This document shows positions 16,066-18,778 of a DNA stretch of 64,000 nucleotides, piece after piece. A program made the position numbers and the translations under genes. The notes beneath the pieces were generated by a model. That model had not been told where the DNA came from. It worked only from the letters and a program-made list of their open reading frames with translations, and made no database searches. This DNA comes from Caldisericales bacterium (GTDB taxonomy: Bacteria; Caldisericota; Caldisericia; JAAYUI01): the NCBI GenBank assembly GCA_022707885.1, contig JAKIZT010000004.1, forward strand, positions 103,697 to 167,696, written 5' to 3'. Within the stretch, counting starts at the first letter, position 1, and each line of letters starts with the position of its first letter.

Positions 16066-16094
16066 TTGACAACAAGCGTGCCGGATTTTAACAT
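16066..16094 (+). promoter_or_regulatory. Putative sigma70 promoter of tRNA-Arg
   Basis: TTGACA (16066-71), 17-bp spacer, TAACAT (16089-94), about 10 nt before the tRNA. Confidence 0.6.
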
Positions 16095-16104
16095 AATCCG
16101 GCAC

Positions 16105-16178
16105 GCGCCCATAGCTCAACTGGACAGAGCGGTGGCCTCCGGAGCCGCAGGTTAGGGGTTCGAATCCCCTTGGGCGCG
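16105..16178 (+). tRNA. tRNA-Arg(CCG), CCA not encoded
   Basis: GCGCCCA/TGGGCGC acceptor stem, TAGCTCAACTGGACAGAGC D arm, anticodon loop CT-CCG-GA, GGTTCGAATCC T arm; followed by GCTT, not CCA. Confidence 0.95.
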
Positions 16179-16475
16179 CTTTCTTTTTATGACATACACC
16201 CCGGCACATTCGGAAATTTGAGAATAGGACACCAAATAGCCCAAATCAGAAATTCTTTTTACAAGAAAATCTACATCGACAGCTACACAAAAAGGGGCCG
16301 ATACCAATAACAACCGCTCCCGAACTCGGCACCGTTCCGGCAGACCTCATCAACGCGCTCAATCTGATATTTTACAACACCCCACAAGAAGTCATGTTAA
16401 GGTTTTGGGCGTGGAATAGAGAAGACGTATATCATACAATAAATCGTAGATTAATTTCAGAAGGGAGGTCCTTTC

Positions 16476-17669
16476 ATGACGGCAAGAATTGACGCAAATA
16501 TTAATAAAGAAACCGTCAGCTTCATCTGCACGCAGATAAGCGTATCAACCGCTTTTCTCGCACAGAAAACTGGGCTTGCCGAGGATAAAGTTGGCTCGTG
16601 GCTTGACGTTTCAAGTGATGCTTACCCGACCTTAAATCAGGCAAAGACCATCGCAAAAGTCCTGAAGGTGCCGTTTGCCGGCTTGTATATGCATAAAGGC
16701 AACCTTCCAATTAAGCAGTTACCTTCGCTACGCAATCTGCGAAGATTGCCCGAACCATTATCCGATGACAGTTCGTTGAATCTGGCGGTTGTCGAGTTAA
16801 TCCGTTATCACGATTTCCTGACATCGACTGAATCAGAGTTGGAAGTCACCGCCCCACCGTTAGCTCTGCCTTCTATTCCTGATACAGCAAGCAAAGCGGA
16901 GTATGCAGGGCATATCAGAACTTTTTTCGGATTGGAATTGAACGACCAATTTAGGTTGCAGTCCGCCCGTCAGTTTTACTTATATGTTCGCCAGCAGATT
17001 GAAAGAAAGGGCGTCTTCGTTCATTGCTTTACTGGCGTAGACGTTGAGGTAGCTCGTGGTATCTCCATTTTCAATGAGTCCGCTCCCATAATCGGAATCA
17101 ACGATAAAGACAGATATCCGGCCAAGACATTTTCCATCATTCACGAATTAGTTCATATCCTGAAAAAGCAGTCCACACTGTGCAATGAGATGTTTGCTTC
17201 GTTCTCCTCTCAGGACGAGGAAGTATTTTGTAATGCTGTTGCTGGTGAAGTGCTTGTGCCAGAGGCTTCACTCAACACCGTTTTAACCACGCAGAATATA
17301 ACCAGCATCAGCTTAGATACCATTGAAGCCATTGCCAAAAGGTACAACGTCAGTAAAGAAGTAATTACTCGCAGACTGTATGACACGAGTCGGATTTCAA
17401 AAGATGAGTACGACACCTATACAAACGAAATTCGCCAGAACTTCCTGCAGGAAGAGGAAGCCAAGAAAATAGCTCGTCAGGAGGGCAGAGGGAATCAGGG
17501 TTTCACAAATATGAGCCAATACGCCGTTGACAAGACTAGCCCTGCTATTTGCAAGGTTTTACTTATTGGATACAGTAATGGTTACTTTAGTAAACAAGAG
17601 GTATCTGGGCTTCTCGGAATCAAAGAAAAAAACATATCTAAATTCTTGACGGAGGTTGCGAAATGGTGA
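16476..17669 (+). CDS. Xre-HTH + ImmA/IrrE (peptidase M78) metallo-endopeptidase
   Basis: N-terminal HTH (LAQKTGLAEDKVGSW...PTLNQAKTIAKVLKVP), RGISI, FSIIHELVHIL (HExxH), EEVFCNAVAGEVLVP, YNVSKEVITRRL. Confidence 0.9.
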   Translation: MTARIDANINKETVSFICTQISVSTAFLAQKTGLAEDKVGSWLDVSSDAYPTLNQAKTIAKVLKVPFAGLYMHKGNLPIKQLPSLRNLRRLPEPLSDDSSLNLAVVELIRYHDFLTSTESELEVTAPPLALPSIPDTASKAEYAGHIRTFFGLELNDQFRLQSARQFYLYVRQQIERKGVFVHCFTGVDVEVARGISIFNESAPIIGINDKDRYPAKTFSIIHELVHILKKQSTLCNEMFASFSSQDEEVFCNAVAGEVLVPEASLNTVLTTQNITSISLDTIEAIAKRYNVSKEVITRRLYDTSRISKDEYDTYTNEIRQNFLQEEEAKKIARQEGRGNQGFTNMSQYAVDKTSPAICKVLLIGYSNGYFSKQEVSGLLGIKEKNISKFLTEVAKW

Positions 17670-18160
17670 CACCTGCTTATGGAGAGCAAGACACATTGTT
17701 CCCACCTCCATATCGCTACATAATTGATACTTGCTCGATTCTTTCGCAAAAGTCGGACGAACCTCACCGCCGCAATGTGTACAGCACCCTGTGGCAAAAC
17801 ATCGACGAAATGGTAAAATCAAAAGCGATAGTCATCTGCTCAGAGATAGAGGATGAGGTCGAAGATGATGAGTTGAAGCAGTGGCTTCAACAGAACGAGT
17901 GCGAGGTTCTGCCTATAGATACAGTTGTCCAGCAGAACGTGACGAAAATCGTAAATGAGCATCCAAGATTGCTTGATTTTTCAAATACGAAGTCATCCGG
18001 TGATGCTTTTATCATTGCCACCGCGATGAAATATCAGATTACCGTGATTACGGAAGAGAACAAGAACTCGCAGAAGAAAATACCGCAGATATGTGCAGCA
18101 TACAGCATTCCATGTCTTAATGTGATTGAACTGGCAGAGCAGGAGGGCTGGACATTCTAA
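17663..18160 (+). CDS. DUF4411 family PIN-like domain protein
   Basis: YIIDTCSIL, SEIEDEV, GDAFIIATAM, VITEE...KIPQICAAYSIPCLN...EGWTF; overlaps the upstream stop (ATGGTGA). Confidence 0.88.
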   Translation: MVTPAYGEQDTLFPPPYRYIIDTCSILSQKSDEPHRRNVYSTLWQNIDEMVKSKAIVICSEIEDEVEDDELKQWLQQNECEVLPIDTVVQQNVTKIVNEHPRLLDFSNTKSSGDAFIIATAMKYQITVITEENKNSQKKIPQICAAYSIPCLNVIELAEQEGWTF

Positions 18161-18778
18161 CGTAAAAAAAATTAAAAAACCCGTAATTGCAATCAAAATC
18201 GGATATTCACATGTTTTAGGGGCTGGTCCATATGGCGTGTCTATATCCCAGTAAAACTCGTCATCGTCCCAGAGATCAAGGTTTCTGTTTCTGCATTCAT
18301 CAAGCCCGGTTCTATCCTCAAATGAGATGTCACCAATAACCATGAATCCAGCTTCTTTTATGTGATCACCAAAGCATCTTTCGATTATCTGGAGTTTTGC
18401 CTCATCACAAAATTCATGAAAAAGATAGTTCGAAACCACTCTGTCAAACTTCTGTTCATCCAGAAAATCAAATGGTTTTGTGACATCAGCCTGGAATATC
18501 CTGGCCTCTGGAACGTTGGTTTTGCATCTTTCAACCATTTTTGGCGAAAAATCAACACCAGTAATATCTTTTGCTATATCGGCATACATCGTGGCAAGCA
18601 TTCCAGTGCCAATGCCAAGTTCAAGTACGGAACAATTCTCATTAATATCCGAGTGGTTTAAAACAGAAAAAAGCACGTCCCTGAAATCAATAAAGGGAAA
18701 TTCATTGCTCTCTGTGCAATTATCATATCGGGCCGACCACTCATCAAATAGGATTTGCCTGTCGGGTTGTTCAGTCAC
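17993..18778 (-). CDS. Class I SAM-dependent methyltransferase (3' end aberrant)
   Basis: LFDEWSARYD, VLELGIGTG motif I, GVDFSPKM, VVSNYLFHEF; the last ~56 codons overlap DUF4411 antisense. Confidence 0.8.
   Translation of the reverse strand: MTEQPDRQILFDEWSARYDNCTESNEFPFIDFRDVLFSVLNHSDINENCSVLELGIGTGMLATMYADIAKDITGVDFSPKMVERCKTNVPEARIFQADVTKPFDFLDEQKFDRVVSNYLFHEFCDEAKLQIIERCFGDHIKEAGFMVIGDISFEDRTGLDECRNRNLDLWDDDEFYWDIDTPYGPAPKTCEYPILIAITGFLIFFTLECPALLLCQFNHIKTWNAVCCTYLRYFLLRVLVLFRNHGNLIFHRGGNDKSITG

What the first reader, a model, noticed from the sequence alone, without database searches (positions are those of the whole stretch)
16476..18160. Xre-ImmA/IrrE peptidase + DUF4411 PIN islet after tRNA-Arg: candidate toxin-antitoxin/antiphage system
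Seen: two genes overlapping by 7 nt (ATGGTGA), about 300 nt after the tRNA 3' end. The first has an HTH plus an intact HELVH; the second has PIN-type acidic residues (DT, E, D). Arg codons here are often CGT/CGC/CGA, whereas flanking genes mostly use AGA/AGG (by eye). There is no integrase or att repeat. Known: Xre-COG2856 peptidase genes paired with PIN/DUF4411 genes were predicted as TA-like modules by comparative genomics; HTH-Zn-peptidase antitoxins occur in RosmerTA; IrrE-type peptidases respond to ssDNA/DNA damage. To my knowledge this pair is not experimentally characterised. Inference: a horizontally acquired module in which the peptidase senses stress or phage and controls a PIN RNase.
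Basis: partly seen in the sequence, partly recalled or inferred. Interest (0 to 1): 0.72.

Follow-up and report, generated by a model that had tools for sequence, protein, structure and literature searches.

The report
VapBC52-type toxin-antitoxin pair, recently inserted
The two genes are a real, horizontally acquired toxin-antitoxin pair (a zinc-peptidase antitoxin plus a PIN RNase toxin), but a member of this family, VapBC52 of Mycobacterium tuberculosis, was solved and characterised in 2026, so this is a new member of a known kind.

Summary
ORF A (16476..17669, 397 aa) has an Xre-like HTH and an M78/IrrE peptidase domain with HELVH. ORF B (17663..18160, 165 aa) is a DUF4411 PIN protein. They overlap by ATGGTGA, 296 nt after tRNA-Arg(CCG).

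Both proteins match, as a pair, the crystal structure of M. tuberculosis VapB52/VapC52 (PDB 9vzy; E 1e-16 and 6e-19; 31% and 33% identity). Every published functional residue is kept: Zn ligands H223/H227/E249, switch Cys C236, an invariant Arg at the proposed self-cleavage site (L88-R89, versus F-R in VapB52), and PIN residues D22/E65/D114/E132. So "not experimentally characterised" is out of date.

Horizontal acquisition is shown. A relative about 90% identical has an empty site. The ~1.97 kb insert lies inside the 3' end of a methyltransferase gene, so the tRNA is only a neighbour. The insert carries a frameshifted remnant of a BREX brxL gene. Arg codon usage is atypical.

In other genomes the pair sits directly downstream of BREX, type I or type III restriction genes.

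Most likely mechanism, by homology: ssDNA triggers antitoxin self-cleavage, which frees a tRNA-cleaving PIN toxin.

Caveat: selection looks relaxed within this lineage (dN/dS 0.45 and 0.73).

The parts
16105..16179 (+). tRNA-Arg(CCG). A neighbour, not part of the insert and not the integration target.
   Evidence: ARAGORN; Rfam tRNA at 65.7 bits. The empty-site relative L004 has the same tRNA followed directly by the methyltransferase gene.
16152..16277 (-). Orphaned 3' end of the host methyltransferase gene, coding for ...LVKRISDLGYLVSYSQISECAGVYVIKRKRAQGDSNP. The insertion cut it off from the rest of the gene.
   Evidence: The minus-strand ORF 16152..16313 matches the C-terminus of the intact 218-aa methyltransferase of L004. 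blastn collinearity with L004 ends at 16277.
16278..18244 (+). Inserted DNA, about 1.97 kb, with junctions ambiguous by 3 nt. It contains the brxL remnant, the antitoxin, the toxin and an 84-nt tail. It is flanked by imperfect direct repeats TCTACATC (16270..16277) and TCTATATC (18240..18247).
   Evidence: Absent from L004, whose flanks are 89-91% identical. The sister lineage L087 has CCTGCATC and TCTGCATC at the two junctions, and the empty site has a single TTTGCATC.
16289..16423 (+). Frameshifted remnant of the 3' end of a BREX brxL gene.
   Evidence: tblastn against BrxL of L089 gives 25/38 identical residues, E 2e-14, over 16289..16402. The last residues (LGVE*) continue in another frame up to the TAG at 16421..16423. 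DNA homology to L007 starts at 16301.
16476..17669 (+). Antitoxin, VapB52-like (397 aa). It has an Xre-like five-helix N-terminal domain (aa 11-71), a linker with L88-R89, an IrrE/M78 peptidase plus helical middle domain, and a four-helix C-terminal domain (aa 346-396).
   Evidence: Pfam. PDB 9vzy_A at E 1e-16, and 4e-25 with a family profile. AlphaFold model with pLDDT 87.5 and pTM 0.87. Foldseek hits to CapP, IrrE and PprI.
16737..16742 (+). Codons L88-R89, aligned with the F75-R76 'FR motif' that is the proposed self-cleavage site of VapB52.
   Evidence: Alignment to 9vzy_A. R89 is invariant in 65 of 65 antitoxins, and position 88 is L/M/Y/F in 55 of 65. The model is disordered at aa 91-95. 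IrrE cleaves DdrO at L106/R107 (PMC6868357).
17142..17222 (+). Peptidase active site: H223-E224-L-V-H227 (17142..17156), Cys-switch C236 (17181..17183) and third Zn ligand E249 (17220..17222).
   Evidence: These align with H216, H220, C229 and E245 of VapB52. H, E, H and E are invariant in 65 of 65, and C is kept in 58 of 65. Codons checked.
17663..18160 (+). Toxin, VapC52-like DUF4411 PIN nuclease (165 aa). Catalytic residues are D22 (17726), E65 (17855), D114 (18002) and E132 (18056).
   Evidence: Pfam DUF4411 at E 3e-25. PDB 9vzy_D at E 6e-19, aligned end to end. The residues align with D6, E48, D99 and E117 of VapC52 and are conserved in the family.
18161..18244 (+). 3' tail of the insert, with a decayed terminator hairpin.
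   Evidence: L008 and L009 have intact hairpins at the same place (GCCCGTGAA...TTCACGGGC and CCCATG...CATGGG). The window has mismatches in the stem. Homology to L009 runs to the right junction.
17993..18778 (-). Host methyltransferase ORF. The true gene is 18245..18778. The ORF now reads through into the insert and overlaps the toxin 3' end by 168 nt.
   Evidence: ORF list. Pfam methyltransferase domains cover only aa 29-160. Comparison with L004. The NCBI and JGI gene calls for the same contig omit the toxin gene.

Best explanation
The pair is a type II toxin-antitoxin module of the VapBC52 type.

Shown from the sequence: the 165-aa protein is a DUF4411 PIN nuclease with a complete four-residue acidic active site. 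The 397-aa protein is a three-domain antitoxin. It has an Xre-like N-terminal domain, an IrrE/CapP-like zinc peptidase held by a cysteine switch, and a four-helix C-terminal domain.

Inferred by homology to VapBC52: in the resting state one antitoxin binds a toxin dimer. The N-terminal domain grips the outside of the dimer and the C-terminal domain covers the active site. C236 blocks the peptidase zinc. Single-stranded DNA, from DNA damage or phage replication, displaces the cysteine loop. The peptidase then cuts its own linker, here at L88-R89. The N-terminal domain is lost, the toxin is freed, and it cleaves tRNAs in or near the anticodon loop. Translation stops, giving growth arrest or abortive infection.

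Shown for the locus history: the module arrived as a ~1.97 kb fragment from a donor in which it followed the BREX gene brxL. It inserted into the 3' end of a methyltransferase gene in an ancestor of this lineage, whose sister MAG is labelled Caldisericales.
For: - Paired homology: antitoxin to 9vzy_A (E 1e-16; profile 4e-25; 31% identity over 302 aa) and toxin to 9vzy_D (E 6e-19; 33% over 146 aa, end to end).
- Every residue that PMC13273310 assigns a function is present. All but C236 (58 of 65) and the residue before R89 (position 88) are invariant or nearly so across 58-65 family members.
- The AlphaFold model (pLDDT 87.5) reproduces the architecture: 5-helix N-terminal domain, peptidase, 4-helix C-terminal domain. 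The low-confidence stretches are aa 91-95, just after L88-R89, and aa 240-245, between C236 and E249.
- Best structural matches are CapP, IrrE and the PprI-ssDNA complex.
- The gene pairing is near-obligate. In 67 of 79 loci from many phyla a DUF4411 ORF lies immediately downstream, usually overlapping.
- Long-term purifying selection: dN/dS is 0.05-0.13 against the 80-83% identical homologues.
- Defence context elsewhere: the pair lies directly after pglX-pglZ-brxL, and after type I, type III and type ISP restriction genes. Roughly 20 of 53 immediate upstream genes are of these kinds.
- Acquisition: empty site, brxL remnant and codon bias.
Against: - Nothing here is experimental for this locus.
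- Identity to the prototype is only about 31-33%.
- The C-terminal, toxin-occluding domain does not align by sequence. It is supported only by the predicted four helices.
- The residue before the conserved Arg is Leu, not Phe.
- Between the two lineages that carry the insert, dN/dS rises to 0.45 (antitoxin) and 0.73 (toxin; 13 non-synonymous against 4 synonymous codon changes). Flanking genes give 0.01-0.12. Constraint may therefore be relaxed here.
- No sigma-70-like promoter was found upstream, and the terminator hairpin is decayed.
- In the 2026 paper, phage protection was seen only with the toxin over-expressed alone, not with the pair.
Confidence: 0.72

Rival explanations
1. The pair is mainly an addiction or stabilisation cassette. 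It keeps the DNA it rides on (BREX or restriction islands, plasmids, integrative elements) from being lost and has no direct anti-phage role. In this genome it is a hitch-hiker that lost its island.
For: - It sits at the 3' end of restriction and BREX operons and next to serine recombinases.
- A 6.6 kb block carrying it is 96-98% identical across genera.
- 42 plasmid records carry relatives, 18 of them on conjugative plasmids.
- In the 2026 paper, co-expression of antitoxin and toxin gave no phage protection.
- Here only a brxL stump is left.
Against: - An ssDNA-activated peptidase switch is more machinery than plain addiction needs, and it matches known phage and damage sensors (CapP, IrrE, PMC13273310).
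- Addiction and abortive infection are not mutually exclusive.
- The pair has persisted intact in two diverged lineages without any island to stabilise.
Confidence: 0.15
2. In this lineage the module is an inert or decaying remnant. Both frames are still open but are no longer expressed or selected.
For: - dN/dS is 0.45 and 0.73 against the sister lineage, versus 0.01-0.12 for flanking genes.
- The terminator is decayed.
- No promoter was found by the consensus scan.
- Convergent read-through from the methyltransferase ORF covers 168 nt of the toxin gene.
- Gene callers skip the toxin.
Against: - Both ORFs are full length in both lineages after a synonymous divergence of 0.05-0.13.
- All catalytic and switch residues are intact, and both ribosome-binding sites are intact.
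- Antitoxin dN/dS is still well below 1.
- A live toxin with a dead antitoxin would be lethal, so decay usually removes the toxin first. That has not happened here.
- The exact antitoxin protein is indexed in 124 blocks of the contig collection, of which 23 contigs were read.
Confidence: 0.1
3. The peptidase acts in trans, like ImmA on ImmR, IrrE on DdrO or CapP on CapH. It would cleave a separate repressor to switch on neighbouring genes, and the PIN protein would be an accessory rather than a neutralised toxin.
For: - PADLOC's best hit for the antitoxin is capP (E 5e-13).
- The fold matches CapP and IrrE.
- Makarova et al. 2009 proposed a three-component circuit for this gene association.
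Against: - The Xre domain is fused to the peptidase, and the conserved [L/M/F/Y]-R site lies in its own linker.
- No separate small Xre gene and no CBASS or other regulated operon lie beside the pair here.
- In the prototype the antitoxin binds the toxin 1:2 and cuts itself (PMC13273310).
- The DUF4411 partner is near-obligate.
Confidence: 0.03

Closest known systems
VapBC52 (Rv2515c/Rv2514c) of Mycobacterium tuberculosis; PDB 9vzy and 9vzz; Singh et al., Nucleic Acids Res 2026 (PMC13273310)
   Same: - Same two families in the same order. The antitoxin is large (about 400 aa) with an Xre-like N-terminal domain, an IrrE peptidase and a helical C-terminal domain. The toxin is a DUF4411 PIN protein.
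- Both proteins match significantly over nearly their full length.
- The HExxH motif, the Glu ligand, the switch Cys, the Arg of the cleavage motif and the four PIN acidic residues are all kept.
   Different: - Identity is only 31-33%.
- The residue before the conserved Arg is Leu, not Phe.
- The C-terminal domain cannot be aligned by sequence.
- The disordered 23-residue N-terminal extension of VapB52 is absent.
- Different phylum and different genomic setting: a recent 2 kb insert carrying a BREX remnant.
Predicted 'Xre-COG2856 + PIN' three-component TA modules (Makarova et al. 2009, PMC2701414; Matelska et al. 2017 subfamily DUF4411.1, PMC5499597)
   Same: This is exactly the gene association those surveys described: a fused HTH-DUF955/COG2856 gene upstream of a DUF4411 gene.
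   Different: Those were predictions only. They assumed a separate repressor as the protease substrate, whereas the prototype cuts itself.
RosmerTA (RmrT/RmrA) anti-phage system
   Same: The antitoxin has the same kind of architecture (HTH plus M78 peptidase). PADLOC RmrA models hit ORF A at E 4e-12 and weaker.
   Different: The partner is not RmrT. The toxin here has no RmrT hit and is a PIN/DUF4411 protein.
CapP/CapH regulators of CBASS (PDB 7t5t), and IrrE(PprI)/DdrO of Deinococcus
   Same: - Same peptidase fold (top Foldseek hits).
- Same cysteine-switch and ssDNA-activation logic, according to PMC13273310.
- IrrE cuts at Leu-Arg (PMC6868357), the same dipeptide as L88-R89.
   Different: - Those peptidases cut a separate Xre repressor to induce genes. 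Here the Xre domain is fused and the output is release of a toxin.
- No CBASS or DNA-repair regulon lies nearby.
Canonical VapBC modules
   Same: A PIN-fold toxin with four acidic residues. The prototype of this subfamily cleaves tRNA, like many VapC toxins.
   Different: - The antitoxin is not a small RHH, AbrB or Phd protein degraded by Lon or Clp. It is a self-processing sensor protease.
- The stoichiometry in the prototype is 1:2.

Membership tests
VapBC52-type (HTH-IrrE peptidase antitoxin + DUF4411 PIN toxin) | The toxin belongs to DUF4411 (PF14367) and keeps the four PIN acidic residues (D6, E48, D99 and E117 in VapC52). | tested here: met
   Pfam E 3.3e-25 over profile positions 1-159 of 159. 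9vzy_D at E 6e-19. D22, E65, D114 and E132 align with these residues and are conserved in 57-58 of 58 relatives.
VapBC52-type (HTH-IrrE peptidase antitoxin + DUF4411 PIN toxin) | The antitoxin has three parts: an Xre-like five-helix N-terminal domain, an IrrE/M78 peptidase middle domain and a four-helix C-terminal domain. | tested here: met
   9vzy_A aligned over aa 11-341. The AlphaFold model shows five N-terminal helices and four C-terminal helices. Foldseek matches CapP and IrrE for the middle domain and C.BclI and SinR for the N-terminal domain. The C-terminal domain is supported by predicted structure only, not by sequence alignment.
VapBC52-type (HTH-IrrE peptidase antitoxin + DUF4411 PIN toxin) | Zn site HExxH plus Glu, and a cysteine-switch residue. 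| tested here: met
   H223, E224, H227 and E249 are invariant in 65 of 65. C236 aligns with C229 of VapB52 and is Cys in 58 of 65.
VapBC52-type (HTH-IrrE peptidase antitoxin + DUF4411 PIN toxin) | A conserved 'FR' self-cleavage motif in the linker between the N-terminal and middle domains. | tested here: inconclusive
   The Arg (R89) is invariant, but the preceding residue is Leu here. Across the family it is L 31, M 12, Y 8, F 4 and R/K 10. Position and disorder fit. Cleavage itself was not tested.
VapBC52-type (HTH-IrrE peptidase antitoxin + DUF4411 PIN toxin) | Antitoxin gene directly upstream of the toxin gene in one operon. | tested here: met
   7-nt overlap here. The same arrangement is found in 67 of 79 loci.
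VapBC52-type (HTH-IrrE peptidase antitoxin + DUF4411 PIN toxin) | The toxin arrests growth, the antitoxin neutralises it, ssDNA induces self-cleavage, and the toxin cleaves tRNA. | not testable with these tools
   Needs expression and biochemistry. Shown only for the M. tuberculosis prototype (PMC13273310).
RosmerTA | An RmrT toxin partnered with RmrA. | tested here: not met
   ORF A hits RmrA models (best E 4e-12). ORF B has no RmrT hit in PADLOC-DB, only weak PDC-M07B hits at E 0.007.
CapP/CapH-regulated CBASS | A separate CapH repressor gene and an adjacent CBASS operon. | tested here: not met
   No such genes within +/-10 kb. The Xre domain is fused to the peptidase.
tRNA-targeted genomic island | An integrase and a direct repeat of the tRNA 3' end at the far junction. 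| tested here: not met
   No integrase and no tRNA-derived repeat. The junctions lie in the methyltransferase gene about 100 nt beyond the tRNA.
spr1629 family repressor/antitoxin (NCBIfam NF052239) | Score above the curated cut-off of 335 bits. | tested here: not met
   25.3 bits.

The most novel reading that the evidence does not exclude
This clade of VapBC52-like modules may be a dedicated accessory of restriction and BREX operons. It is co-oriented immediately downstream of res, hsdR, brxL or type ISP genes in many unrelated genomes. It could act as an ssDNA-triggered abortive back-up that fires when restriction or BREX is overrun or when restriction damages the cell's own DNA.

It may also move as a minimal ~2 kb cassette by crossover at a 6-8 bp core (TGCATC) without a recombinase of its own.
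Probability: 0.12. Interest if true: 0.55.

Novelty: new member of a known kind. Interest (0 to 1): 0.27.

Why it matters
The finding extends a toxin-antitoxin family that has just been characterised, and so far in a single actinobacterial pathogen. It places the family in a distant, barely cultured lineage whose sister MAG is labelled Caldisericales, and beyond that in Bacillota, Paceibacterota, Proteobacteria and methanogenic archaea.

The family survey gives three useful generalisations:
- The Arg of the proposed self-cleavage site is universal, while the residue before it is any large hydrophobic residue.
- The cysteine switch is replaced by Ser in a gammaproteobacterial clade.
- The pair is habitually attached to restriction and BREX operons. 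This is independent genomic support for an anti-phage role that the 2026 paper showed only by toxin over-expression.

The locus is also a clean natural example of a defence gene pair moving alone, still carrying a stump of its former BREX neighbour. None of this changes how such systems are understood.

Tried and rejected
- Foldseek against the PDB could not test the match to VapB52 directly. That library stops at April 2026 and lacks 9vzy. The sequence search of the newer PDB copy was used instead.
- NCBIfam gave nothing above cut-off.
- PADLOC has no model for the toxin, so PADLOC 2.0 would not call this system.
- The promoter scan found no sigma-70-type site upstream of the antitoxin, and counts in the region were not above shuffled expectation. 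A TACAAT/TATAAT hexamer about 35 nt before the ATG is conserved with L007 by eye, but its spacing to any -35 is not conserved, so I make no claim.
- Rfam found only the tRNA, so there is no sign of an RNA antitoxin.
- No terminal inverted repeats. The best pair is 72% complementary over 25 nt. No tRNA-derived att repeat.
- The metagenome scan with the 1255-aa flanking protein returned only three loci, of which one (L004) spans the site. The presence/absence evidence therefore rests on one empty-site contig plus one sister lineage with the insert.
- Weak hits of the toxin N-terminus to thymidylate synthase (E about 0.01) were treated as chance.
Full report
**1. The observation**

The window holds two co-oriented ORFs exactly as described.
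- Gene A: 16476..17669 (397 aa).
- Gene B: 17663..18160 (165 aa).
- They overlap by ATGGTGA.
- tRNA-Arg(CCG) lies at 16105..16179, so the first ATG is 296 nt downstream.

Each start is preceded by a ribosome-binding site.

Pfam assigns Peptidase_M78 (E 1.2e-12) and a threshold-level HTH_26 to gene A. It assigns DUF4411 (E 3.3e-25, whole profile) plus PIN (E 6e-8) to gene B. HELVH is at aa 223-227. The PIN acidic residues are D22, E65, D114 and E132.

The codon claim also holds.
- 13 of 23 Arg codons in the pair are CGN, against 18% in 45 other genes of the window (Fisher p 5.5e-5).
- The antitoxin gene has the most atypical synonymous usage of all these genes (z -3.3).
- The toxin gene is unremarkable (z 0.0).

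No integrase lies within 10 kb, and there is no tRNA-derived repeat.

**2. What it is**

A sequence search of the PDB returns a single entry for both proteins, 9vzy.
- The antitoxin matches chain A at E 1e-16 (aa 26-341), or E 4e-25 with a profile of 28 relatives.
- The toxin matches chain D at E 6e-19 over aa 19-165, up to its last residue.
- Identities are 31% and 33%.

9vzy is the VapB52-VapC52 complex of M. tuberculosis (Rv2515c/Rv2514c), published in June 2026 (PMC13273310). That paper reports the following.
- VapC52 is a DUF4411 PIN toxin that cleaves tRNA.
- VapB52 is an unusually large antitoxin with three parts: an HTH-like N-terminal domain needed for toxin binding, an IrrE/CapP-like zinc peptidase, and a four-helix C-terminal domain that covers the toxin active site.
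- The complex is 1:2.
- Zinc is held by H216, H220, E245 and a "switch" cysteine C229.
- ssDNA makes the protein cut off its own N-terminal domain, probably at a conserved F75-R76.

The window proteins carry the equivalent of each of these.
- H223, H227, E249 and C236 in the antitoxin.
- R89, preceded by Leu, at the proposed cleavage site.
- D22, E65, D114 and E132 in the toxin.

An AlphaFold model built on 28 relatives (pLDDT 87.5, pTM 0.87) shows five N-terminal helices, the peptidase core and four C-terminal helices. The only very-low-confidence stretches are aa 91-95, just after L88-R89, and aa 240-245, between the switch Cys (C236) and the Glu ligand (E249).

Its best structural matches in the older Foldseek library are CapP, IrrE and the PprI-ssDNA complex. 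These are the structural relatives the paper also points to (CapP, an IrrE-family peptidase).

**3. Family survey**

A scan of one genome per species found 79 loci. They come from Bacillota, Paceibacterota, Spirochaetia, Deltaproteobacteria, Gammaproteobacteria, Methanobrevibacter and Bathyarchaeia.
- In 67 loci a DUF4411 ORF follows immediately, usually overlapping the antitoxin stop.
- Most exceptions are contig ends or truncated antitoxins.
- Only two loci have a full antitoxin without a toxin.

Conservation across 65 antitoxins:
- H, E, H, E and R89 are invariant.
- Position 88 is L, M, Y or F in 55 of them.
- The switch Cys is present in 58. A gammaproteobacterial clade has Ser.

Leu-Arg is also the bond that IrrE cuts in DdrO (PMC6868357). 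The Leu here is therefore compatible with self-cleavage.

The toxin family has 1549 clusters at 50% identity with E <= 1e-3 in 1.8 billion representatives. Relatives occur on 42 plasmid records but on only 2 phage records.

The gene association itself was predicted in 2009 and 2017.

**4. How it got here**

The contig belongs to a MAG lineage whose sister assembly is labelled Caldisericales.

A metagenome contig with about 90% identical flanks (L004) has the tRNA followed directly by a convergent, intact 218-aa methyltransferase gene. In the window, about 1.97 kb (16278..18244) splits that gene near its 3' end.
- The orphaned C-terminal coding piece survives at 16152..16277.
- The truncated gene now reads through into the insert and overlaps the toxin gene by 168 nt.

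This overlap probably explains why the NCBI and JGI gene calls omit the toxin.

The left 135 nt of the insert is a frameshifted remnant of the 3' end of brxL (E 2e-14). In Firmicutes bacterium ADurb.Bin182 and three other contigs, the 82%-identical pair lies 52 nt after pglX-pglZ-brxL and ahead of variable restriction genes. The donor was therefore a BREX island.

The junctions carry a short direct repeat.
- It is TGCATC, perfect on both sides in the sister lineage.
- Each copy is mutated once in the window.
- The empty site has a single copy.
- The same hexamer ends the homology with another relative.

This could be a target duplication or a short-core or microhomology crossover. The insert encodes no recombinase.

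**5. Context elsewhere**

Among 53 non-redundant loci, the gene immediately upstream is usually co-oriented and very often a defence gene.
- ResIII-type restriction subunits: 10.
- Type I HsdS: 3.
- BrxL or Lon-like: 3.
- AAA_13: 2.
- One each of AlwI, type ISP and a Schlafen-type helicase.

A 6.6 kb block holds the 3' part of a type III res gene (the mod gene lies upstream), the pair and a serine recombinase. It is 96-98% identical in Christensenella, Pseudoflavonifractor, Agathobaculum and Anaerotruncus.

This supports a defence-island lifestyle. It is genomic evidence independent of the 2026 paper. In that paper only over-expressed toxin protected M. smegmatis from phage D29, and co-expression with the antitoxin removed the protection.

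**6. State of the module in this lineage**

Against the 80-83% identical relatives, dN/dS is 0.05-0.13, which is clear purifying selection. Against the sister lineage that shares the insertion, it is 0.45 for the antitoxin and 0.73 for the toxin. Flanking genes give 0.01-0.12.

The terminator hairpin seen in relatives has decayed, and no consensus promoter was found. Both frames and all key residues remain intact.

I read this as relaxed or possibly diversifying selection, not proven decay.

**7. Verdict**

The system is now a known kind, and this is a new, divergent member.

The remaining open points are these.
- Whether the native pair, rather than the free toxin, defends against phage.
- Whether the linkage to restriction and BREX operons is functional.
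- How a 2 kb cassette without a recombinase moved.

Noticed in passing
window 17993..18778 (-) and 16152..16313 (-): The insert split the host SAM-methyltransferase gene near its 3' end. Its ORF now reads through into foreign DNA and overlaps the toxin gene by 168 nt. The NCBI and JGI gene calls for this contig list the methyltransferase and omit the DUF4411 gene.

The methyltransferase core is only 78% identical in protein to that of the empty-site relative, while neighbouring genes are 93-97% identical. It is still under purifying selection between the two insert-bearing lineages (dN/dS 0.11).
   Followed up: partly
window 16289..16423: A frameshifted remnant of the last ~45 codons of a BREX brxL gene lies just upstream of the antitoxin. 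It marks the donor context.
   Followed up: yes
window 16270..16277 and 18240..18247; L087 around 7795 and 9770; L004 3791..3798: A short direct repeat lies at both junctions of the insert. Its core is TGCATC: perfect in the sister lineage, single-copy in the empty site. It is also present at the right end of homology in L009, and as TGCCTC inside brxL of L007. The mechanism is unresolved (target duplication versus short-core crossover).
   Followed up: partly
L023, L025, L026, L027, L028, L033, L068 (for example L028 2856..9491): A ~6.6 kb block is 96-98% identical across different genera of Clostridia, pointing to very recent inter-genus transfer. It holds the 3' part of a type III restriction res gene, the antitoxin-toxin pair, a serine recombinase and a small ORF.
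   Followed up: partly
L079-L085 (Gammaproteobacteria and Betaproteobacteria): In this clade the switch cysteine of the antitoxin is replaced by Ser, while the zinc ligands and the Arg of the cleavage motif are kept. These members may be regulated differently.
   Followed up: no
L034 7191..7675; L058 1422..1903; L064, L071, L075, L076: Some loci carry frameshifted toxin genes or truncated antitoxin genes, that is, decayed copies of the module. Homologues also occur in archaea (Methanobrevibacter, Bathyarchaeia: L058, L070, L072, L074, L076).
   Followed up: no
window 16076..16106: A perfect 12-bp inverted repeat sits between the stop of the 1255-aa FG-GAP/transglutaminase gene and the tRNA. 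The scan called it terminator-like on the minus strand only. It overlaps a TTGACA-17-TAACAT promoter-like site just upstream of the tRNA.
   Followed up: no
window 16476..18160 versus L087 8001..9685: Synonymous divergence of the pair between the two insert-bearing lineages (dS 0.05-0.13) is lower than for most flanking genes (0.12-0.48). The insert may have spread between lineages by recombination after they split, or it may mutate differently.
   Followed up: no
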